Below are positions 2,657 through 47,475 of a stretch of 55,746 bases of DNA, one piece after another. The DNA is taken from positions 1 to 55,746 of the IMG/VR virus record IMGVR_UViG_3300033407_000020; one strand, 5' to 3'. A program made the translations under genes and the position numbers. The DNA comes from a virus (lineage: Duplodnaviria; Caudoviricetes). The notes under the pieces are model-generated. The model did no database searches, was not told the origin of the DNA, and saw only the letters and a list, made by a program, of their open reading frames with translations. Each line of letters opens with the position of its first letter. Position 1 is the stretch's first letter.

Positions 2657-3189
2657 CAGAAGGCGTCGCTCAGCGACACCGCGACCCGGAGCGTGCCGCC
2701 GCCGACGCCGCCCTGAGCGTTCTCGTTGACCCAGCGCAGGAACGCCACCGACCCGCAGCCCGGCAGCGTCCCGGCCCGTTCCCCTGAGAGCAGCGCGTTG
2801 AACATGAGCACGGCGTCCTCGTATATCTCGCGGGCGCTAGCTGTCTCCTCCGCTGCGCTAGGGATCTGCGGGCTGTGCCCCTCGCCGCCCACCGTGGGCA
2901 CGCACCGGATGATCGTCACCGCGAGCACCGCCGCGCGCATGGCGTGCCCGGCGTCCCCGAGCAGGGCGTTGGGGTTCTCCTGTAGCGGGTTGCCTTCGAT
3001 CCCGTACGTCGACTCCACGAACACGGTGACCTGCCCGTCGCAGTGACCCTCGTCGGTGGCATCGAACGCGGGGAGCCCGTTGGCGACGTAGCGGCGCTCG
3101 GGCAAGTCCTGACCCTCAGCGGTGTAGTAGTCCACTACGGCGTCGAGGCACGCCTGCGCTACGTCGAAGAGGCGCGTTGTCGGGATCAC
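2656..3189 (-). CDS. Tail terminator-like protein
   Basis: GTG at 3189 overlaps the upstream stop. TIIRC and QGGVGG motifs. Position before the neck and chaperone genes. Confidence 0.6.
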   Translation of the reverse strand: MIPTTRLFDVAQACLDAVVDYYTAEGQDLPERRYVANGLPAFDATDEGHCDGQVTVFVESTYGIEGNPLQENPNALLGDAGHAMRAAVLAVTIIRCVPTVGGEGHSPQIPSAAEETASAREIYEDAVLMFNALLSGERAGTLPGCGSVAFLRWVNENAQGGVGGGTLRVAVSLSDAF

Positions 3190-4184
3190 GACGGCAACGG
3201 TACTTGCATGATGGCGGCGGCTGCGCGCTCCGCTGCCCGCCCATCGGTGTGCGCGTACACGGAGGCGACCATGCGGGCCTGCGCGGCGGCGTGCCGTTCC
3301 GGGTGGTCGAGCACCGTGAGCACAGTCGGTACCAGCTGCTCGGGCTCTTCGACGTGAGGCATCCCCTGCACCCAAGACCAGAAGCGACCGCCATGATCCA
3401 CGTCGCGCCGCCACCACGGCGCCGACACCCAGATGATCGGCTTGCGCGTCGAGGCGAACTCGGGGCCCGTGCTGCTGTTGTCCACGACGAGCACATCGGC
3501 CTCGTCCATGACCGCAGCGAAGTCCTCGACGGCGCGCACACCCATGCGCGCCCAGTCGGTGCGGTACTGCCGCCACCAGCGCGGGTGCCCGTGACCGACG
3601 AGCTCAGCGCCACGAGCAGCGAGCGCGTCGCGCAGGTCAGGCATGACCGGGCGGTAGTGCGACCAGGCCGTCCCCGCCTCGGGGCACAGGCTGTTCGGCC
3701 AGTGCATAGCGACCGCTACGCGCAGCGGGCCGGACTGTCGATTCGCGAAATCGCGATTCGCGATTCGCGATTCGCGATTCCAGCGGTCCAACTTCGCGCA
3801 CCCCGCCACGACCGTCCGCGCCTCCGGGTAGCGGGCCAGCCAGCGCTGCGCTGATGACTCGCTCGGGCACACGAACAGGCGCACCTGCTCCATGCCGTTG
3901 CCCCCGGCGTAGGACGGGTGCCGGGCCGCAGTCTCGTCGCCGTGGTAGCTCTGATCGGCGCCGTGGCTCACGAGCACGCACGGCACGCCGGGCCCGAGGC
4001 GCTGCACGTCCGACGCCCCAGCGACGAGCCACAGATGCCCGGAGCGGTCCTCGCGCCCGAGCGGGCGACCCCAGGGGCGGCGCATCGGCGCCCACCACTC
4101 CCCGAACACTCCGGGTGGCAGCGCCTCCACGATGGGCGCCAGGTGCTCCCGGTAGTGCGGCAAGCTGGCGTACGCCTGGATCAC
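3186..4184 (-). CDS. TagB/TagF-like CDP-glycerol glycerophosphotransferase / GT-B fold transferase
   Basis: SHG, GCAKLD, GHP and ADVLVVDNSSTGPEFASTRKPII motifs match the Glyphos_transf pattern. Confidence 0.7.
   Translation of the reverse strand: MIQAYASLPHYREHLAPIVEALPPGVFGEWWAPMRRPWGRPLGREDRSGHLWLVAGASDVQRLGPGVPCVLVSHGADQSYHGDETAARHPSYAGGNGMEQVRLFVCPSESSAQRWLARYPEARTVVAGCAKLDRWNRESRIANRDFANRQSGPLRVAVAMHWPNSLCPEAGTAWSHYRPVMPDLRDALAARGAELVGHGHPRWWRQYRTDWARMGVRAVEDFAAVMDEADVLVVDNSSTGPEFASTRKPIIWVSAPWWRRDVDHGGRFWSWVQGMPHVEEPEQLVPTVLTVLDHPERHAAAQARMVASVYAHTDGRAAERAAAAIMQVPLPS
3739..3780. repeat. Heptamer tandem repeat (CGATTCG)n inside the TagF-like gene
   Basis: Reads cgattcg cgaaatcg cgattcg cgattcg cgattcg cgattc. 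Confidence 0.9.
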
Positions 4185-4272
4185 GAACCCTCCCTAGCGT
4201 CCCACGAGGCGCCCCCAGGTTGCCCCAGGCGCTCCCGAGCGGGCCGCGTGGGCGCGGATAGCCACCGATCCG

Positions 4273-4755
4273 CTACGGGGCTTGTAGCGCTGCCAGCAGC
4301 GTCTTGCGCTGGGCGCCCTCCGGGGCTGACTCCAGCTCGACCATCGCCCGAGCACGCACCGGGTCGCCGCCCACCCAATCCAGCACGCTCGCCACGTTCC
4401 CACCGATCCGGCCCGCAGCCTCTTCCAGCGCCGCCAGGTACGCCGCCTCCCTGGCCTGCGCGTCCGCGTCCTCCTGGGTCGTCGTGCCGTGCTCGTACTC
4501 TGCGCGCCCGTCGAGGATCAGCGCGCGCAGCCGGTCGTCCGGGGCGTGCGCCAACTCGTCGCGGTGGCGGCGCGTGAAGCAGTCCGGGTCCGTGCAGTCA
4601 TCCGGGTCGAGGTCATCCCAGGTGCGGGCCACTGCTGCGAGCTCGTCCGGGGTGGCGCCGAGGTCGCGCAGGCGGGACAGGAACTGGTCGAGCTCGCCAC
4701 GGATCTCGCTGGCCGCATAGCGGGGCGGGCCAGCTGGCTGGTATGGGTCTGGCAT
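4273..4755 (-). CDS. Hypothetical phage protein
   Basis: TAGGCT 7 nt before the ATG. C-terminal VLDWVGGDPVRA...RKTLL motif recalled from actinophage structural-region proteins. Confidence 0.7.
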   Translation of the reverse strand: MPDPYQPAGPPRYAASEIRGELDQFLSRLRDLGATPDELAAVARTWDDLDPDDCTDPDCFTRRHRDELAHAPDDRLRALILDGRAEYEHGTTTQEDADAQAREAAYLAALEEAAGRIGGNVASVLDWVGGDPVRARAMVELESAPEGAQRKTLLAALQAP

Positions 4756-4773
4756 GGCGCGGAGCCTACGCGG

Positions 4774-5898
4774 TCACACCAGGGACCGCAGGATCGCCTC
4801 GGCCAGCAGCGGCGGCACGGCGTTGCCGACCTGCTGAAACTGCTTCGTGCGGCTCCCAACCCAGGGATACCCGTCAGGGAAGGACTGCAAGCGTGCCGCT
4901 TCCTCCAGTGTGACGCGCACGCTGCCGGGGGTGTCCTGCCGGGGCGGGTCGCCTGGCTTGCGGTAGCCGGGTGCCGCGACGATCTCGGGGTGGAACGAGC
5001 CGACGATGGTGGTCGAAGGCCGCTCCCACACCCATGACGCTGCATCATGGCCGAACGCGATCACCGGAGCCGCTTCGGTCACAGGATCATGCAGTCGCCG
5101 GTTGACTGACTTACCCTGCCGCAGCCATCGGCCTTCGGCTATCTCCCGCTGGAGCACGAGACTCGACCCATGAGTGTCTGAGCCCCACATGCGACCATCG
5201 CCTGACTTCCCAGCGTGCAATGTCGGTGCCGGGCGGGCGTCCGCTCCCCATTCCAGCGCCTCGGCCATCGTGACGTACATCGGCAGGCCGAACAGGTCAT
5301 CCGGCACTGGCCCTTTGCGGCGAGGGTCGTAGCCACGGTGCGTCGGGGGCGGCGCTGTGACCCGGCGCGAGGCGTGGGCCATGAGCACAGCGCGCTTGCG
5401 GACCTGCGGCACTCCGTACCGCTCCGAGCTCAGCACACCGGCCCATGCGCTGTAGCCCCCGCCGCGCAGCCAGTGCGCGTACGCCTTCCACAACGGCAGC
5501 ACCGCGGGCGCCTGCTCCATCGCCACCCACTCGGGGTGCAGCACGTCGATCCAGCGGCCTGGTTCCAGCGACAACCAGACCAGCGGGTCCGGGCTGGGGC
5601 GTGCCAGCCAGTCCCCGTCGTGCGCCGCCTGCACCAGTGCTGCGATGTGCTCGCGCCCCTCACCCTTCCCGGCCTGGCTGAACGCTGGGCACGGCGGGCT
5701 GGCGATGACACCAGCGACGCGCCCAGCGAACGCTTCGGGCGGGTAGTCAGCGACGCTCGCACGGATCGTGAGATGCCCCGCCGCGGCCCTTGTCTGGCAC
5801 GCGGCCTTGTCCCATTCGATGCCGACCGTGGTGCGTCCCAGCCGTCGTGCTGCCACGTCCCAGCCGCCCGGCCCACCGAAGAGGTCTACGTCGATCAC
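4774..5898 (-). CDS. DNA (cytosine-5)-methyltransferase
   Basis: DLFGGPGG, SPPC, YGVPQVRKR, EAARLQSFP and QVGNAVPP motifs. Confidence 0.95.
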   Translation of the reverse strand: MIDVDLFGGPGGWDVAARRLGRTTVGIEWDKAACQTRAAAGHLTIRASVADYPPEAFAGRVAGVIASPPCPAFSQAGKGEGREHIAALVQAAHDGDWLARPSPDPLVWLSLEPGRWIDVLHPEWVAMEQAPAVLPLWKAYAHWLRGGGYSAWAGVLSSERYGVPQVRKRAVLMAHASRRVTAPPPTHRGYDPRRKGPVPDDLFGLPMYVTMAEALEWGADARPAPTLHAGKSGDGRMWGSDTHGSSLVLQREIAEGRWLRQGKSVNRRLHDPVTEAAPVIAFGHDAASWVWERPSTTIVGSFHPEIVAAPGYRKPGDPPRQDTPGSVRVTLEEAARLQSFPDGYPWVGSRTKQFQQVGNAVPPLLAEAILRSLV

Positions 5899-5907
5899 GC
5901 CGCTACC

Positions 5908-6945
5908 TTAGCGCGCTTTAGCGACTCCCGCCGCGTCGCCCAGCCCTGCCCGGTAGATGCCCTCCAGCGCCGACCAGCGGTGAGCCTCGGCCCACGCCAG
6001 CGACGCCTCCTGCTGGGTCCGCAGCGCCTCCCCGTCCACAGCCAGCCGGTCGAGGCTGAGAGCGAGCTCTCGTGGCATGGCTGAGTGGAGGCGCAGCTCG
6101 CCAGCCGCGGTTCTGAGCGACCCAGAGGATCGCACCGGGACACGCAGCGTGGGCCACCAGTCGTTGGGCGCGCAGTCCGACATGACCACGGCCAGGCCCG
6201 AGGCCATCGCCTCCTGCGCTGGGAGGCAGAGCCCGCCGTAGCGGCGTGGCAGCACGAGCACGTCGGCGTCCTCGTAGAGCGTCCAGTAGTCGGCCCGCCC
6301 TCCCGGTTCGCAGTCGAGGTCGACGTGGCGCGGCACACTGGCGCGCGGCAGCAGGCGATCCTGTGTGAGCATCCGTACGCGCATCGGCTGGCGCACGGAG
6401 CGCAGCGCCTGGAGCAGCAGCGTCGTGCCGTTGCGGTCAGCAGCAGCGCGGTGCCCGGCGACGTGCAGCACCCTGAGCGGGCCGTCGCGCTCGGGCACCG
6501 TGAACGGGAAGCGGTCGTCGGCCACGGGCACCGGGACGAGCTGCGTATGGGCGGGCAGGTGCTCCATGCGCCACGGCGTCGGCACCCACAGAGCGTCAGC
6601 GGGCGGCGGCTCAGCCTGGTTGTAGAACTCGGGCATGACCGCCAGGACCGTCGCGCACCCGGCCTCGCTCGCCCACCCGTAGAAGCGCGGGTCGTAGGCA
6701 GTCTCAGCCAGGTACACGACATCGAGCCCTGCCAGGAACTCGCGGCAGGCGGCCTCGGCCAACCCGCCCTCGTAGGTCACGACCGCTGCGCCGGGGTAGC
6801 GGTCCAGCTGCGCGGGGAAGCCCTTGGCCTCGGCGCCTGGTTCGCGCACGACGAGCGTGCGGTCGGGGTGCAGCGCCCGGTAGAGCTCGTGCGTCATGCG
6901 GCCCAGGCCGCGCTCGTCCGCGCGGGCAACGAGGCCCCAGATCAC
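5908..6945 (-). CDS. Glycosyltransferase, GT-B (GT4-like)
   Basis: ADVLVLPRRYGGLCLPAQEAMASGLAVV. GTG start overlaps the upstream stop. Confidence 0.9.
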   Translation of the reverse strand: MIWGLVARADERGLGRMTHELYRALHPDRTLVVREPGAEAKGFPAQLDRYPGAAVVTYEGGLAEAACREFLAGLDVVYLAETAYDPRFYGWASEAGCATVLAVMPEFYNQAEPPPADALWVPTPWRMEHLPAHTQLVPVPVADDRFPFTVPERDGPLRVLHVAGHRAAADRNGTTLLLQALRSVRQPMRVRMLTQDRLLPRASVPRHVDLDCEPGGRADYWTLYEDADVLVLPRRYGGLCLPAQEAMASGLAVVMSDCAPNDWWPTLRVPVRSSGSLRTAAGELRLHSAMPRELALSLDRLAVDGEALRTQQEASLAWAEAHRWSALEGIYRAGLGDAAGVAKAR

Positions 6946-7388
6946 GACGCCCACTTGGCGTCGGCGTCCTCGACGGGTTCGCTCAACGGCAGCGGCGGGC
7001 GCCCCAGCCACCGCCACAGGCTCTCCATGACAGTCTCGGGGTCGGCTACCAGCGCCTCGTAGACCAGCCAGCGCCAGCGACGCGCTCTGCGCTGGAGCCA
7101 CGCGAAGATCCGTTCGTACGCCTCCATGACCTCCTCCTCGGCGCGTGCCGGGTCCGGTTCGTGCCGCACGACCTTGCTCGCCATCATCGGGCCCCAGGCC
7201 CGGATGGTCACGACCACGGCGTCCGGTGTCGCGCCGCGCAGCTCACGGTCGGTCGGCCAGTGCCGTTCATCCAACCCGCCGTGGGGCATCGAGTAGTGGA
7301 CGACTTTCAGCTTGCTGTCCGCGCTGAGCAGCCGGGCCGTGAGATGCCCGCCCGTCGATTCGCCGCCCAGGACGAGCACCTGCATCAC
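6942..7388 (-). CDS. Sulfotransferase-like protein
   Basis: N-terminal VLGGESTGGHLTARLL (PAPS-binding loop-like), R...S motif and YEALVADPE. Confidence 0.7.
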   Translation of the reverse strand: MMQVLVLGGESTGGHLTARLLSADSKLKVVHYSMPHGGLDERHWPTDRELRGATPDAVVVTIRAWGPMMASKVVRHEPDPARAEEEVMEAYERIFAWLQRRARRWRWLVYEALVADPETVMESLWRWLGRPPLPLSEPVEDADAKWAS

Positions 7389-8116
7389 AGGCCCAACCCG
7401 TAGCGCTCGATCAGATCCTCTCTAGAGGCAGGCGCCCACCAGTCGAGCGGCAGGCTGGGGTCATCGAAGGGGTGCGTGAACCGCTCGCTGTCGGGCGGGC
7501 AGCCGCCCCACTTGGATGCGTAGTAGCCCTGGTGGGCGTCGAAGTTGACGACGGTACGCCCAGGGTTGACTGCGAGCAGCCGGTCGTAGCCGCGCCCGTC
7601 GCGCGCCTCGCCGCCGACCTCCACAGTCGGGAGAGCGGGGCGCCCCGATGCGAGAGCGAGCCGGTAGCGCCACTCGGTGTCCTCGTAGTAGGCGGGGAAG
7701 AACCCCTCGTCCCACAGTCCGGCGAGGTCGAACGCGGCGGCGTGCAGCGCGACGGCGTGCCACTGGCATGGCATCCCGACCACGCCGAGCTCGTCGCTGG
7801 CGGCGGCTTCGACTAGGCGCATCCCGCCGTCCGGGCCGAACAGCATCGACGTGGACACCCACAGCAGCAGATCGTCGCCGCGCTCCCGCATCCGGGTGAC
7901 GCCCAGGTTCATGGAGCGGGCCACCCCGATGTTGCGGCGCGGCAGGTAGTCGCGCTCATGGGTGTGCGGCGGGGGGCGGTGCAGCTCGCCCGGCATGTTG
8001 CGGAGGCCACGGTCTGTCTGGTCGATGACGAACAGAGCGCGCTGTAGCTCGGGGTGCATCGACGCGACGCACGACCTGGCGCGGGCAGCGTCCAGCACTG
8101 GCAGGACGACGATCAT
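7385..8116 (-). CDS. Glycosyltransferase, GT-A (GT2-like)
   Basis: NIGVARSMNLG and GLWDEGFFPAYYEDTEWRYR. Confidence 0.85.
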   Translation of the reverse strand: MIVVLPVLDAARARSCVASMHPELQRALFVIDQTDRGLRNMPGELHRPPPHTHERDYLPRRNIGVARSMNLGVTRMRERGDDLLLWVSTSMLFGPDGGMRLVEAAASDELGVVGMPCQWHAVALHAAAFDLAGLWDEGFFPAYYEDTEWRYRLALASGRPALPTVEVGGEARDGRGYDRLLAVNPGRTVVNFDAHQGYYASKWGGCPPDSERFTHPFDDPSLPLDWWAPASREDLIERYGLGL

Positions 8117-8604
8117 TTGGCAGACCTCTTTCGCCCCCGAATGCACCTAGCGCACTCCGACTGATGCCCGTCCTTCGTCAAGCGGTTGCGGCTGAACTGA
8201 TCGAGCGGGAGCATCCGCTTGCATCTGCTGCACCACTTCATCCCCGTGGGAGCACCCCGGTTCCTCCCCCGACGTTCTGCTCTGGGCATATCCATCCGCG
8301 GCTTGCGACGGGCGAGGGCCGCACGGATGTCGTCAGCGGTGATTCCCAGCACCTCCATCGAGCGTTCAGATCTAGTAAGGATCTTGGAACCCCAGAGCAC
8401 GACGAGTGCATCTGCCTTCGCTGCGGTAGCCACCTCGGCGTGAGTGAGTCGGCGTTGACGAACGGGGCTACCGGTCCGGTGCCACCGTTGATAGTGCTTG
8501 GCGCACATGCCACGGCACGAGGCCGCTGTGTCACACCCATCGACCAGGCACGGACCTTCCCAGCCGATGTGCAGTCCCATCTGGCTCTCGACTTCGCGGT
8601 ACAC
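8113..8604 (-). CDS. Zn-finger DNA-binding protein (HNH-associated domains, no nuclease motif seen)
   Basis: CLVDGC...RGMCAKHYQRW and KWCSRCK...F...KDG...CARC. Has its own CTAA-GCTAAGGT promoter motif. Confidence 0.65.
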   Translation of the reverse strand: MYREVESQMGLHIGWEGPCLVDGCDTAASCRGMCAKHYQRWHRTGSPVRQRRLTHAEVATAAKADALVVLWGSKILTRSERSMEVLGITADDIRAALARRKPRMDMPRAERRGRNRGAPTGMKWCSRCKRMLPLDQFSRNRLTKDGHQSECARCIRGRKRSAK

Positions 8605-8625
8605 GTCGACCGACCTTAGCGCAGT

Positions 8626-9321
8626 TTAGCCTCGCCGTAGGAACCCGTTGGGCGCGCAGGTCAGCAGCAGGCGTTCCATCGCCCGGTCGGCGTACCAGTC
8701 CGGGTTGCGGGCCAGCCACTCATCGACCGCCTCACGCGGGCCAGGCCCCCACTCAGGGATCACCTCGTGCCCCAGGTCTGTGTCCTCGACCACGATGACC
8801 GTCGCAAGCGGGCCGTACGCCTGAAGCTCTGCGAGGACGTGGGGGGCGGTGTGATCAGAGTCGAGGATCACGAGCACCGGGCCAGGGTCAGCCTGGCACG
8901 CCAAGTCCACCATCCCAACCACGTGCGTGTCGACGCTGGAGCCCTTGATGTAGCGCAAGCGCGGATGGGTTGGGCGCATCTGGCCTCGCGGGTCGGGGCC
9001 GATGTCGTCGGTGTCGTGGATGTCGATGGCGATGACCTGCCCCTGGCCGAGCAACTCCAGCATGTGCGCCAGGAACAGCGACGAACCGCCCCGGTAGACG
9101 CCGCACTCGATGATGACCGTGGGCCGCAGCGCGTGGATCAGCTCGGCGTAGATCACCATGTCAGTCGGTGCCTTCCAGCACTCGTGGCCCCACCAGGTGA
9201 CCGAGGCGTAGCGGTCGGTGTCGTACCAGAACCGATGAAAGTCGGCCACGATGCTGACGGCCCGGCCTCGTGCCCACTCTGCGGTCGGGTACCTCTGGGC
9301 CAAGGCTTCAGGGTCTATCAC
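8626..9321 (-). CDS. CmcI-family (rhamnosyl-type) O-methyltransferase
   Basis: KAPTD, IIECGVYRGGS, GSS, VILDSDH, VVEDT and GPREAV motifs. Confidence 0.88.
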   Translation of the reverse strand: MIDPEALAQRYPTAEWARGRAVSIVADFHRFWYDTDRYASVTWWGHECWKAPTDMVIYAELIHALRPTVIIECGVYRGGSSLFLAHMLELLGQGQVIAIDIHDTDDIGPDPRGQMRPTHPRLRYIKGSSVDTHVVGMVDLACQADPGPVLVILDSDHTAPHVLAELQAYGPLATVIVVEDTDLGHEVIPEWGPGPREAVDEWLARNPDWYADRAMERLLLTCAPNGFLRRG

Positions 9322-42892: not shown

Positions 42893-43732
42893 CTACCCGC
42901 CTGACTCGCAGCGCTGCAGTTGGTTGAGGCAGGTGTCGATCCGCTCGATGAGCCGTACCCGCACCCAGCCGTTGAAGAAGTCGCCGTGAACGCCGTGCTC
43001 CACGTCACCGGACGAGAGCGTGATCGTCGCGCCAGCGGGCACCTCTCCGTAGTGGGTGTACGTCGTGAGCTGCGGCACCTGTACCCGATGCGAGCGCGGG
43101 CACACGTTGGCGTCCTTCCTGTCGCTGTACGTGCTGTACGCCATGTGCGAGCGGTGATCTGCCGAGTCGGTGCTCTTGCCGTCCCAGCAGTCGGGGAACT
43201 GGACGCGCATCGTGAGGTCGGTTGTGCAGTCACCGGGGGTGGGGGTTGGTGGTGCCGCCTCGTTGCACTGCCAGCCTGTTCGGCCAGCAGGAGCGGACAG
43301 GTCGGTCAGTGAGTGCCCGGCGATGATCTTCAGGCCGTCCGGGTAGGCGCGGATCGTGCCGTCCTTGCTGCCACGCCGGTAGTACGCGGTCGTGCGGACC
43401 GGGTCACGTTTGACCCCGTTGATGAACACGGCAGGCGTCCAGTACGCAGCAAGGTCTTGGCTGTCGTTGCATGTGGTGCGGCCGAGCAGGAGCTCGTCAT
43501 AGGTGGTGGTCGATGCGGTGACACCGATACGGCCAGTGAAGTCATGCAAGTGCGCTGCGCCCGGCTGGTTCGGGAACACGATCGGATCATCGCTTGCGGC
43601 GTGGTCGAAGTTGCAGGTGGTCTTGAACCTGACATCGCCCTCCGAGATGTGCGAAGCCCGCTTGACGGGGCCGGGCACGAGTGCCGCGGTCCCCGCCAGC
43701 AGGATCGCCAGGGCGCCAAGGAACCGGCGCAC
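42893..43732 (-). CDS. Secreted DUF1996-domain protein
   Basis: Signal peptide, DDPIVFP.QPG.AHLHDF.G, D.AAYWTP, FPDCWDG, CP.SH and HGDFFNGW. Confidence 0.88.
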   Translation of the reverse strand: MRRFLGALAILLAGTAALVPGPVKRASHISEGDVRFKTTCNFDHAASDDPIVFPNQPGAAHLHDFTGRIGVTASTTTYDELLLGRTTCNDSQDLAAYWTPAVFINGVKRDPVRTTAYYRRGSKDGTIRAYPDGLKIIAGHSLTDLSAPAGRTGWQCNEAAPPTPTPGDCTTDLTMRVQFPDCWDGKSTDSADHRSHMAYSTYSDRKDANVCPRSHRVQVPQLTTYTHYGEVPAGATITLSSGDVEHGVHGDFFNGWVRVRLIERIDTCLNQLQRCESGG

Positions 43733-44073
43733 TACTCGCCGGGCGCGTCCCGCAGTAGCGAAGCCTCGACGGCGCTGTCACTGTTATCGAGGCTCTTGCG
43801 TACGTCGTAACTAAAGGCCGCGGTGGAGCCGAGCACGAGCCCGGCCAGCACCACGCTGGCTGCGTCCATCGACCCGAGAGGAGTGCCCTCGAAGCCGGGC
43901 AACTCCAGGTTGGCGGTGACCGACGCCGCGCCCGCGAGGAACAGCACCGCCACGCCGACCGCCCAGGTCGCTGCCTGTGTCGCCACGTAGTTCGTGTCCT
44001 TGCCGATCGCCTTGACAACGCTGACGATCTTGATGACCGTGGCCGCTAGGGCCAGGAACCCGACTGTCTCCAT
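43732..44073 (-). CDS. Holin
   Basis: About 3 TM helices and a charged C-terminus. Lies in the lysis module. Confidence 0.7.
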   Translation of the reverse strand: METVGFLALAATVIKIVSVVKAIGKDTNYVATQAATWAVGVAVLFLAGAASVTANLELPGFEGTPLGSMDAASVVLAGLVLGSTAAFSYDVRKSLDNSDSAVEASLLRDAPGE

Positions 44074-44107
44074 GATGGTGTCTCGCTTTCTCCAGCTTGG
44101 CTGGCTT

Positions 44108-44545
44108 CTAACGTAGGCCGACGATCAGACCACCGACCGAGATGGCGACAGCGACCACTGCCACGAGGTAGCCCCATGAGGCGTCCATGCCGCGCGACTT
44201 CCCGGCGCTCAGATCGAGCCGCGAGTTGACGAGCGCCAGCGACTCACCGAACCGGGACTCCATCGCGGCGACCCGCTCTTCGATCTGGCTCTGGCGCTGC
44301 TCCGACTCCAGGCGAGGCATGAAGGTCGACGCCTGATCCGCCAGTTGAGCCCGGAACTCGTTGACCGCGTCGAACCGCTTCTCTGCCGCTACCTCGGCCT
44401 TGGCGACGGCCTCCTTGGCGGCGGTCAGTGCCGCGTTGACTGCCTTCTCCTGGTCGGCGAAGCGCTGCTGGTAGCGCAAGTCAGCCGCTTCTGCCAAGAG
44501 CTGCAGGTGCTCATGCAGTGTCTGGACGGTCCACTCACTGCTCAT
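44108..44545 (-). CDS. Coiled-coil protein with C-terminal TM (lysis-associated)
   Basis: EKAV.AAL.AAKEAV.KAE.A.EKRFD.VNEFR..L.DQ and a C-terminal anchor. Confidence 0.7.
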   Translation of the reverse strand: MSSEWTVQTLHEHLQLLAEAADLRYQQRFADQEKAVNAALTAAKEAVAKAEVAAEKRFDAVNEFRAQLADQASTFMPRLESEQRQSQIEERVAAMESRFGESLALVNSRLDLSAGKSRGMDASWGYLVAVVAVAISVGGLIVGLR

Positions 44546-44837
44546 CGCCGCGTCTCCACTCGTGACGTTCCGCCTCGTTGAACTTCCCCAGGTCGCGCTT
44601 CACCTTCACCGCCAGGACGCGGGCCTCTGCGACCTCGACACGCACCTCGGCCATCCCTGCCAGCACATCCTCGACAGCTGTAGCCAGGTCATCGACCTTG
44701 CTTACTAGGTTCGGTTCGTTCTTGCCGACGTGGTTCACGGCACGGTTAGCGGCCCGTGCCTGCACGTAGGCCGCGACTCCTGCGAGCGTTGGCCCGAGGG
44801 ATGCGATGGTGGCGACGATAACGATGTCTGCATCCAA
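44535..44837 (-). CDS. N-terminal TM coiled-coil protein (lysis-associated)
   Basis: Hydrophobic N-terminus. Follows the endolysin. Confidence 0.65.
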   Translation of the reverse strand: MDADIVIVATIASLGPTLAGVAAYVQARAANRAVNHVGKNEPNLVSKVDDLATAVEDVLAGMAEVRVEVAEARVLAVKVKRDLGKFNEAERHEWRRGDEQ

Positions 44838-44855
44838 TGTGGTCCTTTGGTCAGG

Positions 44856-45670
44856 TCACTTCAGCTGGGTCCGGCCACGTATCAGCGGCGCCCACGTCGC
44901 GAACGACAGCACGGCCTCCAGGCGCGGCACCCCGAGCGCATCGGCCAGCCGGTTCACGTCGGTGCGGCTCTTCATGTGCGTCATCTTGCCCGGCTCAAAT
45001 AGCCAGACCTCGGGGGTGCCGTCACAGCGGGCTAGGAACACGTCGGCCTCCAGATCGTCGGTGGATGGTGCAGGTGGGGTCTGCCCGGCCTCGTAGGCCA
45101 GGACGGCGGCGGGGATCGAGTCGCCCGCGAAGTAGTGCAGATGCCAGGGTTCTTTGGGGGCGACTAGATCTCCCATGACCACCCGAACCTCACGGCATTG
45201 ACGCGCAGCCACTCCAGCGTCGCAGCGTCGAACGGCTCGGCCCCAGCGTCGCCGTCGCGCTCTTCGCCGCCGTCCACGGCCTGCGCCCATCCGTGGTTCG
45301 ATGTGCCCGGCACTGCCGCCGTGGCGCCGTACCAGCGGTACCATCTGACGCCGTTCCAGACCTTCACGTCGGTGTTGGCCTTGTAGGCGGTGCGGTAGCG
45401 AGCACGGAAGATGCGTTCCTGCTCGGCGTAGGTCCGGTAGCTGTTCGACGCTGCCCCGGCCTTCAGGACGTGCCCGGCCTTGGCTGCCTCCGCGGCCATC
45501 GCCCCCCACGCTCGCGCTGCCGGGTGGATGAGCGTGATCGGCGCCCCGCCCGCCACCCCAGGGAGCGTCGTGAGGATGCCCGGTGAAAGCTGCCCGTTGC
45601 TCTGCCCGTTCAGCAGAGCGCTGCGCGTGATCGGAACGACGGGGAACGCCACGCCCGCAGGGTACGGCAC
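44856..45670 (-). CDS. Endolysin, M15 (VanY-like) peptidase, interrupted by TAG and a frame change at 45166-45162
   Basis: SYRTY..Q and PGTSNHGWAQAVD in frame 1. The catalytic EPWH motif is only in the second frame. Confidence 0.85.
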
Positions 45671-45691
45671 CGACCCCCGCTGGCAGCGGAA

Positions 45692-46405
45692 CTAGGCGGG
45701 GACCATGAGCCGCAGATGCGCGAAGAACGTTACGTTCAGTGTGATGTCGCTGTCCTGGCGGGCCTGCGTGTCGAGCGTGTCACCCTCAGCGGCGGGGATG
45801 CGCGCCCACGATGACCCGGCCAGCCCGTAGCCCGCGGTCGGGTGGACGCCCGCGGCCTGCGGTGTGAACTGCGAGCTGATCGTGCCGAACAGCGTGGCAG
45901 CCTGGTTGCGGAGCGCCCCCGCCCGGTGCGTGCCGGTGCCGCGGCTCTGCCAGCCCACCTGCAGGTCGCACGACCAGTCGCCAGGCACGTCGCACACGAG
46001 CTTGCCGAACGCATCAGCGGTCCAGCCCTGCCCGGCGCCCTGCTCCACCCACGCTGTTGCCGCGCTGACGCTGACCGTCGCGGAGGGTGCCACGTCGAAC
46101 TGGATGCGGAACGTCTGCTCCGTGGGGGCGTCCTGCGCGACGACACCGAGGATGCCCGACACGAGCGCCCCGTGCGGCGGGTAGAAGTCCACGACCACCC
46201 TGGCCCCGGCGAGCAGCAGCGCCCCCGTCCCGTTCAGCACGGAGATGGCTGCCTCGTCGCCGTCGATGAGGACCGTCACATAGTCCTCGGCGTCGTCGGT
46301 GACGGTACCGAACCGCTTGGTTGGTACCTGCACGGCCCGGCGCGCGATGGGCGGCACCTGCGCCATGAGTAGCCGCATGATCGCCTCGGGACTGAGCTCG
46401 CTCAC
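45692..46405 (-). CDS. Minor tail protein
   Basis: OB-fold-like N-terminus and beta-rich C-terminus. Follows the hub gene. Confidence 0.65.
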   Translation of the reverse strand: MSELSPEAIMRLLMAQVPPIARRAVQVPTKRFGTVTDDAEDYVTVLIDGDEAAISVLNGTGALLLAGARVVVDFYPPHGALVSGILGVVAQDAPTEQTFRIQFDVAPSATVSVSAATAWVEQGAGQGWTADAFGKLVCDVPGDWSCDLQVGWQSRGTGTHRAGALRNQAATLFGTISSQFTPQAAGVHPTAGYGLAGSSWARIPAAEGDTLDTQARQDSDITLNVTFFAHLRLMVPA

Positions 46406-47475
46406 GCTCCCACCCCATAGATACGTCTGAGATCGTGGACCATCTCGGAGCCTTCGGTGAGCCTGAGCCGCCAGCCCTGCTCGCGGTAGACGGTCCCGAG
46501 GTACATCACGGCGTCGTGGGTGTCATGCCGCGGATCTGGGGGGCTGGAGAACTGCACCCACTGGAACGTCGATGAGTGCTGCTCGTAGGCGACGCGCGCA
46601 CGCTCGACGGCCTCAGCCTCGCTTGCCAGGCCCTGCTCGCTGATGACCGTGGCGACAACGAACCCACGATTCGCGGCGCTGTGCGGCGCCTCTGGGGGCA
46701 CGTCGTAGAAGCCGCTGATCGGCTGATCCGGGTTGCCTGAGTCCACGACGATGTAGCGGTTCGGTGCGTCGAGCAGGTCGTCGGACTCGACCATCGACCC
46801 GGCCAGGATGCGCCCACCCGAGTCGTAGATCAGCGACGGCAGAGCCGACGCCAGATCAGGGATGCGGCTCACCCTGCCCACCCCGTCGTTGTCGAAGTAC
46901 GCGGAGAACGCGCTACCGAGCGCGGCGAGGTCGTTCACCACGTCGAGCCGGAACGTGTTGCCTGCGGGCCAGCTGATCGGGTTGGCGAGCTGGCTGGTGA
47001 TCGTCACGTCCACATCGAAGGACGGGACCCCAGCGATGGTGAACTGGTCGATGATGGCGTCACGTATCGGGGTGCCCGCCGCGTAGGCGACGGTCTGCTC
47101 TAGTGGCTGGTCGAGGATGAGGGTCTGGTCGACGGCGGGCACGTCGGCCTCCAGCCCCCACTCGTGGCGGGCCCGGTCCATGCTCCCGAGGATGAAAACG
47201 CCCAGGTTGAACTCGGCGCCGTTCTCCAGCACCCACACTGGGCGCAGCCGGTTCCCGAACGGGTCGAGGCTGGCCTGGTCGGTGGGGGCCAGCGTCACGC
47301 CCTGGAGGGTGCGGTTGATACGCCGGTTCGTGTTCTGCTCCACCGACGCGTTGCCGATGAGCGGTGTGACCTCACCGACCTTCGTGAGTGCCAGGTCGAG
47401 CACGTCCCAGCGGATCGTGCTCGACCGCTGCCCGATGCCCGCCGTGAGGTCTAGAAGCTCGGCGGTCGTGGGCAC
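46402..47475 (-). CDS. Minor tail / baseplate hub protein
   Basis: LGVF, YFDNDG, PNRYIV and PDPRH motifs. Confidence 0.75.
   Translation of the reverse strand: MPTTAELLDLTAGIGQRSSTIRWDVLDLALTKVGEVTPLIGNASVEQNTNRRINRTLQGVTLAPTDQASLDPFGNRLRPVWVLENGAEFNLGVFILGSMDRARHEWGLEADVPAVDQTLILDQPLEQTVAYAAGTPIRDAIIDQFTIAGVPSFDVDVTITSQLANPISWPAGNTFRLDVVNDLAALGSAFSAYFDNDGVGRVSRIPDLASALPSLIYDSGGRILAGSMVESDDLLDAPNRYIVVDSGNPDQPISGFYDVPPEAPHSAANRGFVVATVISEQGLASEAEAVERARVAYEQHSSTFQWVQFSSPPDPRHDTHDAVMYLGTVYREQGWRLRLTEGSEMVHDLRRIYGVGA

What the first reader, a model, noticed from the sequence alone, without database searches (positions are those of the whole stretch)
45141..45185. Candidate stop-hopping site 2: endolysin active site split by ATC-TAG-TC in a similar hairpin
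Seen: the M15 peptidase frame ends FGWSWEI-TAG (45166-45164). The EPWH motif is in another frame (GTC GCC CCC AAA GAA CCC TGG CAT). GGG-A-GA-TCTAG-TC-G-CCC again places TCTAG at a hairpin tip. Known: M15B enzymes need both SxHxxxxAxD and ExxH, so neither ORF alone should be active. Inference: a 5-nt hop from AUC to near-cognate GUC gives WEIAPKEPWH and a 269-aa enzyme, and could throttle lysis timing. Alternatives are a two-chain enzyme starting at ATG 45176 (MGDLVAPKEPWH), readthrough followed by -1 slip at C_CCA_AAG, or a simple mutation.
Basis: partly seen in the sequence, partly recalled or inferred. Interest (0 to 1): 0.82.

Follow-up and report, generated by a model that had tools for sequence, protein, structure and literature searches.

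The report
Phage lysis enzyme split into two genes
A soil phage's cell-wall-cutting enzyme has its active site divided between two overlapping genes, and the same split recurs in many distant relatives, so it is most likely a working two-piece enzyme and not a ribosome hop or a sequencing error.

Summary
On the minus strand a VanY/LAS (M15) peptidase frame ends ...FGWSWEI-TAG (45166-45164). The EPWH motif continues in the -1 frame. An independent Logan assembly reproduces the stretch with 0 differences.

The TCTAG hairpin is not special: TCTAG occurs at chance frequency, and the fold is no more stable than shuffled sequence.

The break is not private to this phage. Seven of 120 listed homologues, the window's own included, end at exactly WE[ILV]. 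Seventeen short partner proteins begin 4-9 residues before E[PL]WH, and 16 of them start with Met. The catalytic segment is invariant across them while their tails diverge.

In the window the downstream piece has its own ATG (45176) and GTG (45182). An anti-SD pairing of -12.1 kcal/mol lies upstream. None of 103 intact homologue junctions reaches that value. The pairing and the ATG are built from rare codons: AGG, TCA and GGG. A complex model places the two chains together (0.79 against best control 0.02).

Best reading: a two-cistron, translationally coupled split endolysin (about 0.6). A 5-nt hop, readthrough plus a -1 slip, and a dead gene are minor rivals. DNA of the split relatives could not be fetched.

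The parts
45164..45670 (-). ORF-A, the N-terminal fragment of the VanY/LAS peptidase (168 aa from GTG 45670; relatives suggest the GTG at 45652, MAFPV..., may be the real start). Ends WEI-TAG.
   Evidence: Pfam PF02557 at 40.2 bits, profile 5-108/132; 100% match to P0001.
45272..45301 (-). SNHGWAQAVD: the H-x6-D motif (His126, Asp133 of ORF-A). These are two of the three zinc ligands of LAS enzymes.
   Evidence: Sequence. H and D are invariant in alignments A1 and A4. They align to the SEHQ.GLA.D stretch of the LdcB and VanY structures. The ligand role is recalled from the LdcB/VanY literature.
44856..45176 (-). ORF-B, the C-terminal fragment (106 aa, MGDLVAPKEPWHLHYFAGDSIPAAVLAYE... plus a variable tail) in the -1 frame relative to ORF-A. 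TGA stop at 44858-44856.
   Evidence: P0121. 17 ORF-B-type proteins were aligned.
45141..45152 (-). GAA CCC TGG CAT = EPWH: catalytic Glu and third zinc-ligand His, carried by ORF-B.
   Evidence: E9, W11 and H12 are invariant in 17 of 17 ORF-B-type proteins. It aligns to EPWH of 4ox3 and 6a6a.
45164..45176 (-). 13-nt start/stop overlap ATGGGAGATCTAG: ORF-B ATG 45176-45174 and ORF-A TAG 45166-45164.
   Evidence: Start/stop overlaps are common in this genome: -4 nine times, -1 twice, -11 once.
45177..45193 (-). Shine-Dalgarno-like stretch GTGAGGTTCGGGTGGTC. It includes an alternative in-frame GTG start (45182-45180) 5 nt after GAGG.
   Evidence: Duplex with a generic anti-SD tail is -12.1 kcal/mol. 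Only 2.1% of 2,020 minus-strand NTG triplets are as strong or stronger. None of 103 intact-homologue junctions reaches it. It is built from AGG (4.7% of Arg), GGG (28.8% of Gly) and TCA (7.6% of Ser).
45152..45158 (-). C_CCA_AAG heptamer in the ORF-A frame, 3' of the TAG. It matters only for the readthrough-plus-slip rival.
   Evidence: It lies downstream of the stop codon, so it cannot act without prior readthrough.
43732..44837 (-). Three small membrane-protein genes directly downstream (44535-44837, 44108-44545, 43732-44073), making this a lysis cassette.
   Evidence: hydrophobic segments read by eye. The last one hits PHROG 1299, holin, weakly at E = 5.7e-4.

Best explanation
The locus encodes a naturally split LAS/VanY-type endolysin made as two polypeptides from two overlapping cistrons.

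ORF-A (about 18 kDa) carries the substrate-binding part and two zinc ligands (His126, Asp133). ORF-B (about 11.6 kDa) starts at ATG 45176 or GTG 45182 behind its own Shine-Dalgarno-like sequence. It overlaps the ORF-A stop by 13 nt, so translation is probably coupled. ORF-B supplies the strand with the catalytic Glu and the third zinc ligand (EPWH), the conserved YFAGD.IPAAVL.YE segment, and a variable C-terminal tail.

The cut lies in the turn between the ...FGWSWE strand and the EPWH strand. The two chains can therefore pair edge to edge and rebuild one catalytic domain.

Shown here:
- the sequence anatomy;
- recurrence of the same split in many diverged relatives, with the catalytic motifs conserved;
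- the start codon and the SD-like signal.

Inferred:
- that both chains are made;
- that they assemble and are active only together;
- that the split serves lysis control or module exchange, or else is a tolerated accident.
For: 1. Seven of the 120 listed homologues of ORF-A, the window's own included, lack EPWH and end at exactly ...F G [WF] S W E [ILV]. They are 162-168 aa and 52-65% identical to the window's. The other 113 run through WE.QSEPWH.

2. A profile of C-terminal tails found short Pfam-less partners. Two report the same longest-contig length as a short N-fragment: P0123 with P0019 (36,663) and P0125 with P0027 (39,740).

3. A search of 1.84 billion representatives listed 16 short proteins that begin at the junction. 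With P0125 that makes 17. Of these, 16 start with Met, 4-9 residues before E[PL]WH.

4. E9, W11, H12, Y15, G18, D19, P22, A24, V25, L26 and E29 are invariant across the 17, while overall identity to the window's ORF-B is only 22-49%. That is purifying selection on the downstream piece, and several different N-terminal peptides.

5. In the window, anti-SD pairing upstream of ATG 45176 is -12.1 kcal/mol, in the top 2.1% of 2,020 NTG triplets. None of 103 distinct intact-homologue junctions reaches it (minimum -9.6, mean -4.7). The SD and the ATG rest on rare codons: AGG 36/769 Arg, TCA 43/569 Ser, GGG 282/980 Gly.

6. Start/stop overlaps are the rule in this genome.

7. Complex model: score 0.79, best of 3 controls 0.02. 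That mark was reached by 58 of 80 solved complexes and 2 of 110 mismatched pairs. The runs agree in at least 78% of contacts and the partner's pLDDT is at least 74. The interface is chain 1 residues 161-167 and 125/130-135 against chain 2 residues 9-25. Because these are halves of one known fold, the pass may reflect likeness to solved single-chain LdcB/VanY structures, not evidence of binding.

8. No other lysin domain was found in the 40 further ORFs scanned: 35 against one library each and 5 against both Pfam and PHROGs.
Against: - No DNA of any split relative could be fetched. Their frames, overlaps and gene adjacency are inferred from protein termini and equal contig lengths only.
- All 164 relatives' loci for which DNA was read (87, 77) are uninterrupted. 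The split is a minority form.
- Gene callers must pick some start codon. Partners without a nearby start would have escaped my search, so the figure of 16 of 17 with Met is partly ascertainment.
- The anti-SD string was a generic one recalled from memory, and the host is unknown.
- No expression or protein data exist.
- A second gene in the same genome (a glycosyltransferase, TAG at 12057-12055) is also broken at TC-TAG with a frame change. A two-chain reading is implausible there, which keeps a shared recoding mechanism from being excluded.
- The complex model cannot tell a split domain that assembles from one that is merely homologous to a single chain.
Confidence: 0.6

Rival explanations
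1. Programmed short bypass (stop-hop). Peptidyl-tRNA-Ile leaves AUC before UAG and re-pairs 5 nt on at GUC. This gives one 269-aa enzyme (...WEI-APK-EPWH...), possibly at low yield as a lysis throttle. It may share a mechanism with the glycosyltransferase break at 12057-12055.
For: - A stop codon directly follows the take-off codon, and the frame offset fits +5.
- The loop between WE. and E.WH tolerates 2-6 residues in intact relatives.
- The same genome holds a second TC-TAG break where matched TTC codons flank TAGG, and where skipping 7 nt restores the family spacing GNF-5 residues-TE seen in 6 of 6 relatives.
- In two pairs the last residue of the N-fragment recurs early in the partner: WEV/VSIS and WEL/MVLL.
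Against: - Take-off AUC and landing GUC differ at the first position.
- The hairpin is no more stable than shuffles, and so is the one at the other site.
- TCTAG is at chance frequency.
- Relatives' partner N-termini are too varied for one shared signal, and 16 of 17 carry an ATG start.
- The SD-like signal and the rare codons are explained by initiation, not by hopping.
- Short stop-hops are known to me only as low-efficiency events (recalled). An essential enzyme kept this way in lineages now in at least 16 separate 50%-identity clusters is unlikely.
Confidence: 0.08
2. UAG readthrough followed by a -1 slip at C_CCA_AAG. This gives ...WEI-x-SPPK-EPWH..., one fused chain.
For: - TAG sits exactly where intact relatives have the nearly invariant Gln (WE.QSEPWH).
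- A canonical X_XXY_YYZ heptamer lies in the right frame 5 nt after the stop and uses the rare AAA codon of frame B (13 of 142 Lys).
- Pro-Lys precedes EPWH in 7 of 17 partners.
Against: - It needs two rare events in series.
- No tRNA gene, hence no suppressor, is present.
- TAG is a working stop for many genes here, with the next gene overlapping or abutting it.
- No stable downstream structure is seen.
- Ten of 17 partners lack Pro-Lys.
Confidence: 0.04
3. A decayed or repurposed gene. The two ORFs do not form an enzyme. Lysis relies on something else, or ORF-A or ORF-B has another role.
For: - All 164 DNA loci of relatives are intact.
- This genome carries another broken gene.
- A DUF1996 protein with a signal-like N-terminus lies just after the holin-like genes.
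Against: - Both halves stay open.
- The catalytic residues are invariant in 7 N-fragments and 17 C-fragments that have diverged to 22-65% identity.
- No other lysin domain was found in the ORFs scanned.
- The record is a complete genome with terminal repeats.
Confidence: 0.1
4. Assembly or sequencing indel in an ordinary one-piece gene.
For: A C5 run follows the stop. One extra C would put EPWH in the ORF-A frame, though the in-frame TAG would remain.
Against: - A second assembler gives the identical sequence at depth 16 with no indel listed at the site.
- The TAG would still interrupt the frame.
- The same split occurs in other assemblies from other sources.
Confidence: 0.03

Closest known systems
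LAS-family zinc peptidases: LdcB/YodJ, VanY, VanXY (PDB 4ox3, 5zhf, 5hnm, 4mur, 4ox5); Pfam PF02557 VanY
   Same: Same fold family by sequence. A profile of 38 intact relatives hits 4ox3 at E = 2.2e-11 and VanY chains at about 2e-9. The H-x6-D and EPWH stretches align.
   Different: Those are single chains. Here the third metal ligand and the catalytic Glu lie on a second polypeptide.
Two-polypeptide endolysins from in-frame internal starts (Lys170, CTP1L, LysIME-EF1, LysP7951) and PlyC
   Same: The endolysin is made of more than one chain, and in some cases it is active only after assembly. I read the abstract of PMC9430671 and saw search listings for PMC4777826, PMC7098653 and PMC12203907. 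PlyC is recalled.
   Different: There the extra chain is a copy of the wall-binding domain, read in the same frame, and the catalytic domain is whole. Here the frames differ, no sequence is shared, and the catalytic site itself is divided.
Split lysA genes of Gordonia phages (clusters CT, DR)
   Same: An endolysin is encoded as two adjacent genes in actinobacteriophages (passages of PMC9671378).
   Different: Those splits fall between domains, so each gene keeps one complete enzymatic domain. Here the split falls inside one domain.
T4 gene 60 translational bypass and short stop-hops
   Same: A sense codon followed at once by UAG, with resumption downstream in another frame. I saw abstracts in search listings for PMC5462505 and 10.1101/2022.08.31.505936.
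   Different: Codons are unmatched, the gap is 5 nt and not 50, and the take-off hairpin is not significant. Relatives show start codons and not a conserved bypass signal.

Membership tests
LAS / VanY peptidase (PF02557, MEROPS M15B) | Significant match to the family profile | tested here: met
   ORF-A scores 40.2 bits against a cut-off of 25, profile 5-108/132. A profile of relatives hits LdcB and VanY structures.
LAS / VanY peptidase (PF02557, MEROPS M15B) | H-x6-D metal-ligand motif | tested here: met
   SNHGWAQAVD in ORF-A. H and D are invariant.
LAS / VanY peptidase (PF02557, MEROPS M15B) | E-x-x-H motif on the same chain | tested here: not met
   EPWH is present but lies on ORF-B in the -1 frame. 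It is a family member in sequence, not in single-chain architecture.
Gene 60-type bypass / stop-hop | Matched take-off and landing codons | tested here: not met
   AUC against GUC.
Gene 60-type bypass / stop-hop | Stop codon directly 3' of the take-off codon | tested here: met
   ATC TAG.
Gene 60-type bypass / stop-hop | Stable take-off stem-loop | tested here: not met
   z-scores +0.36, -0.20 and -0.14 against shuffles.
Gene 60-type bypass / stop-hop | Nascent-peptide signal; a single fused product | not testable with these tools
   Needs expression and mass spectrometry.
-1 programmed frameshift | Slippery heptamer in the zero frame before the stop | tested here: not met
   No X_XXY_YYZ lies upstream of the TAG. 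C_CCA_AAG lies after it.
TAG-to-Gln recoded phage | TAG not used as a terminator; suppressor tRNA present | tested here: not met
   Many genes end in TAG with the next gene overlapping or abutting. There are 0 tRNA genes. The frame also changes after the TAG.
Heteromeric endolysin by in-frame internal start | Second chain read in the same frame and sharing the stop codon | tested here: not met
   ORF-B is in the -1 frame and shares no residues with ORF-A.
Translationally coupled gene pair | Start codon overlapping or abutting the upstream stop, with a ribosome-binding signal | tested here: met
   13-nt overlap; anti-SD duplex of -12.1 kcal/mol, top 2.1%. Actual coupling was not tested.

The most novel reading that the evidence does not exclude
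This phage uses short UAG-triggered ribosome hops at two genes. In the glycosyltransferase the hop would be TTC-TAG-G-TTC, 7 nt with matched codons. In the endolysin it would be ATC-TAG-TC, 5 nt. The endolysin would then be made mostly as two chains and, by occasional hopping, as a fused chain. That would give a natural, tunable mixture that sets lysis timing.
Probability: 0.07. Interest if true: 0.9.

Novelty: new variant of a known kind. Interest (0 to 1): 0.58.

Why it matters
Endolysins are usually treated as single chains. The known multi-chain ones add copies of a binding domain to a complete catalytic domain.

Here the catalytic centre of a zinc peptidase appears to be divided between two cistrons, with two ligands on one chain and the third ligand plus the catalytic Glu on the other. 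This arrangement has persisted in many diverged soil-phage lineages.

If both chains are needed, it would be a natural split enzyme whose activity depends on assembly. That offers:
- a possible safety or timing device for lysis;
- a ready-made pair for conditional lysins;
- a route by which the variable C-terminal module can be exchanged as a separate gene.

There is also a practical point. Annotation pipelines will call such loci truncated or pseudogenes.

Tried and rejected
- **Global TAG recoding: rejected.** TAG ends many genes whose successors overlap or abut it, and there are no tRNA genes. A crude ORF-length comparison under altered codes was uninformative at 68% GC.
- **Special TCTAG/CTAG motif: rejected**.
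- **Special hairpin: rejected**.
- **DNA of split relatives: not obtained.**
  - IMG/VR scans with P0001, P0027, A1 and P0122 gave only intact or no relatives.
L069 looked broken and proved intact.
  - The junction pattern gave 0 hits in IMG/VR and one chance hit in a MAG (L096).
  - A second junction pattern gave 6 chance hits in low-GC phages.
- **Named phages:** only Microbacterium phage lysins at up to 50% identity over part of ORF-A.
- **phmmer of one relative against the PDB:** nothing. The profile search worked.
- **ORF-B alone against the word-indexed database:** only itself.
- **Sequencing runs:** no RNA holder listed. Run X2 holds a relative about 93% identical, but its pieces stop at 45137 and resume at 45209, so the junction is not covered. 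Only contigs could be laid, not raw reads.
- **Tree:**
  - The quick tree was used because the careful search did not finish.
  - It has 115 rows. My motif filter dropped 5 of the 120.
  - The 7 split rows need 4 changes, at least 3 of them forced by starred branches, and 0 of 500 shuffles were as low.
  - I do not read this as independent origins, because recombination is equally possible.
- **Atlas search:** only leads. The ORF-B tail resembles the non-catalytic ends of other lysins at TM about 0.5, on a poor model.
- **Literature:** no paper on an intradomain split VanY endolysin. Supplements were not consulted.

Full report
**What the record is.** The window is a complete 55,746-bp IMG/VR virus record with direct terminal repeats at about 68% G+C. 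Nearly all genes lie on the minus strand. PHROG and Pfam scans give tape measure and tail proteins, then the locus in question, then small membrane proteins, then Gam, Erf, replication genes, terminase, portal, capsid, and a block of sugar and methyl transferases. The finding therefore sits at the head of a lysis cassette, directly after the tail genes. This is the usual place in actinobacteriophages (passage of PMC7302621).

**The observation.**
- On the minus strand the VanY/LAS peptidase frame reads ...AVRFGWSWEI and stops at TAG 45166-45164.
- Pfam VanY matches this 168-aa ORF at 40.2 bits but only over profile positions 5-108 of 132.
- The missing end, with EPWH, lies in the -1 frame (GAA CCC TGG CAT, 45152-45141) and runs on for 106 codons from ATG 45176.
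- A Logan contig of run X1 (3,911 nt, depth 16, probably the source sample) reproduces 44000-46500 without a difference or gap.
TCTAG and CTAG occur at chance frequency. The small hairpin is no more stable than dinucleotide shuffles, with z between -0.20 and +0.36.

**Relatives: mostly intact.**
- All relatives for which I could read DNA are uninterrupted: 87 loci of metagenome and IMG/VR contigs (L069 was a false alarm) and 77 of 80 IMG/VR loci. The other 3 are cut by contig ends.
- These loci give 103 distinct junction sequences.
- They read WE[LIV]-QS-EPWH as a rule. The loop ranges from 2 to 6 residues.

**Relatives: a minority split at the same spot.**
- Seven of the 120 best protein hits, the window's own included, have no EPWH. 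They are 162-168 aa long and end at exactly ...FG[WF]SWE[ILV]. They are 52-65% identical to the window's ORF-A.
- A profile built from C-terminal tails then found short, Pfam-less proteins that begin just before EPWH. Two report the same longest-contig length as a short N-fragment: P0123 with P0019 (36,663) and P0125 with P0027 (39,740).
- An exhaustive HMMER search of 1.84 billion cluster representatives listed 16 such proteins among its best 150. With P0125 there are 17.

**What the 17 partner proteins show.**
- Sixteen start with Met and one with a GTG-encoded Val.
- The catalytic motif follows after 7-9 residues, or 4 in P0123.
- E9, W11, H12, Y15, G18, D19, P22, A24, V25, L26 and E29 are invariant, while overall identity to the window's ORF-B is only 22-49% and the tails are unrelated.
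- A decaying downstream fragment would not keep its frame, its catalytic residues and a start codon across that much divergence.
- The N-terminal peptides fall into several classes: MGD/MGS/MGT/MGE..., MAGS..., MVLL/MDL..., M[TS]TSIN/MATQ...IS and VSIS.
- For 7 of the 9 MG-class members, back-translation fits the window's layout. The ATG is formed by TCA-TGG of Ser-Trp, and the upstream stop falls in codons 4-5 of the partner. For two members (P0148, P0154) it does not fit. These are inferences from residues, not read from DNA.

**Signals in the window itself.**
- ORF-B has two in-frame starts. ATG 45176 overlaps the ORF-A stop by 13 nt. GTG 45182 lies 5 nt after GAGG.
- The 19 nt upstream of the ATG pair with a generic anti-SD tail at -12.1 kcal/mol. 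Only 2.1% of the 2,020 NTG triplets on this strand do as well.
- At the equivalent place in the 103 intact junctions the mean is -4.7, the best is -9.6, and none reaches -12.1.
- The signal is made by synonymous choices that are unusual for this phage: AGG (36 of 769 Arg codons), TCA (43 of 569 Ser) and GGG (282 of 980 Gly). I noticed this after the fact, so it is supportive and not a test.
- Start/stop overlaps are the normal way genes follow each other here: nine of -4, two of -1 and one of -11.

**Can two chains make one enzyme?**
- A profile of 38 intact relatives hits LdcB/YodJ (4ox3, E = 2.2e-11), VanY (5zhf, 5hnm, 6a6a), VanXY (4mur) and LdcB (4ox5). The H-x6-D and EPWH stretches align.
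- From the LdcB/VanY literature as I recall it, the His and Asp of the first motif and the His of E-x-x-H bind zinc, and the Glu is catalytic. ORF-A therefore holds two ligands, and ORF-B holds the third plus the base.
- The cut falls in the turn between the FGWSWE strand and the EPWH strand.
- The complex prediction scored 0.79 against 0.02 for the best of three controls. That mark was reached by 58 of 80 solved complexes and 2 of 110 mismatched pairs. The runs agree in at least 78% of contacts, and the partner's pLDDT is at least 74.
- Chain-1 residues 161-167 and 125/130-135 lie against chain-2 residues 9-25.
- Since these are two halves of a fold solved many times as one chain, the pass shows that the halves fit the family fold. 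It does not show that they bind in a cell.

**Rivals.**
- *5-nt hop.* It needs re-pairing of tRNA-Ile at GUC. It has no significant structure and does not explain the start codons, the SD-like signal or the variety of junctions.
- *Readthrough plus -1 slip at C_CCA_AAG.* Its appeal is that TAG stands where relatives have the near-invariant Gln, and that Pro-Lys precedes EPWH in 7 of 17 partners. It needs two rare events and a suppressor that is not encoded, and TAG is a working terminator in this genome.
- *Dead gene.* This is hard to square with the conservation above and with the absence of any other lysin domain in the ORFs scanned. Small ORFs were not all scanned.
- *Sequencing error.* This is unlikely and would not remove the TAG.

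**A complication worth stating.**
- The same genome has a second break of similar look. A glycosyltransferase starts with a very strong SD and ATG, runs 12 codons (MVPHTLFYVGNF), meets TAG at 12057-12055, and continues in the +1 frame.
- Six of 6 IMG/VR relatives read GNF-5 residues-TE without interruption. The window carries 7 extra bases, so that TTC-TAGG-TTC flanks the stop with matched codons.
- The only downstream-frame start there (TTG 12068) has no SD (-1.0 kcal/mol), and a 12-residue first chain makes a two-chain reading implausible.
- That site is either a plain inactivating insertion in an accessory gene or the better hop candidate. Its hairpin is not significant either.
- It is the main reason I leave about 0.07-0.08 on hopping at the endolysin.

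**Comparison and novelty.**
- Multi-chain endolysins are known. PlyC has two genes (recalled). A growing set is made from in-frame internal starts (abstract of PMC9430671; listings).
- Gordonia phages carry lysA split between domains (passages of PMC9671378).
- In all of these the catalytic domain is whole. I found no paper describing a LAS/VanY endolysin split inside the catalytic domain. This is a negative from a partial library, and supplements were not read.
- I therefore rate it a new variant of a known kind, of moderate to good interest. Confidence in the two-cistron reading is about 0.6.

Noticed in passing
window 12040-12095 (minus strand): A glycosyltransferase gene (PHROG 28745) is broken after 12 codons. 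The junction reads GGG AAC TTC TAG G TTC CGT, and the rest of the gene is in the +1 frame. Relative to 6 of 6 intact IMG/VR relatives (GNF-5 residues-TE) the window has 7 extra bases. Matched TTC codons flank TAGG. The downstream-frame TTG has no SD. This is either an inactivating insertion or a better stop-hop candidate than the endolysin site.
   Followed up: partly
window 42893-43732 (minus strand): A DUF1996 protein (Pfam E = 1.6e-44) with a hydrophobic, signal-like N-terminus lies directly after the holin-like genes. This is an odd member of a lysis cassette, and its role is unknown.
   Followed up: no
P0019/P0123 and P0027/P0125 (proteins of relatives): The N-fragments P0019 and P0027 are sisters in the quick tree (support 97). 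Their presumed partners begin quite differently (VSIS-EPWH against MVLLTYPK-EPWH). This suggests fast change or exchange at the junction.
   Followed up: partly
window 44460-45248, run X2: A second soil run from another study holds low-depth pieces about 90-97% identical to the lysis cassette. None of them covers the junction (the pieces stop at 45137 and resume at 45209).
   Followed up: partly
window 3186-12098 (minus strand): A block of sugar- and methyl-modifying genes: several glycosyltransferases, a CDP-glycerol glycerophosphotransferase-like protein, C-methyltransferase and CmcI-like methyltransferases, and a C-5 cytosine DNA methylase. The block is large for a 56-kb phage.
   Followed up: no
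window 13049-13705 (minus strand): An ORF matching a major tail protein family (PHROG 792) covers only profile positions 4-186 of 350 and ends in TAG. Whether it is truncated was not examined.
   Followed up: no
window 44856-45050 (C-terminal part of ORF-B): The Atlas structure search places residues ~43-106 near the non-catalytic C-terminal parts of CHAP, GH25, amidase and M23 lysins. TM is about 0.5 on a model with pLDDT 0.47, so this is only a lead that the tail is a wall-binding module.
   Followed up: no
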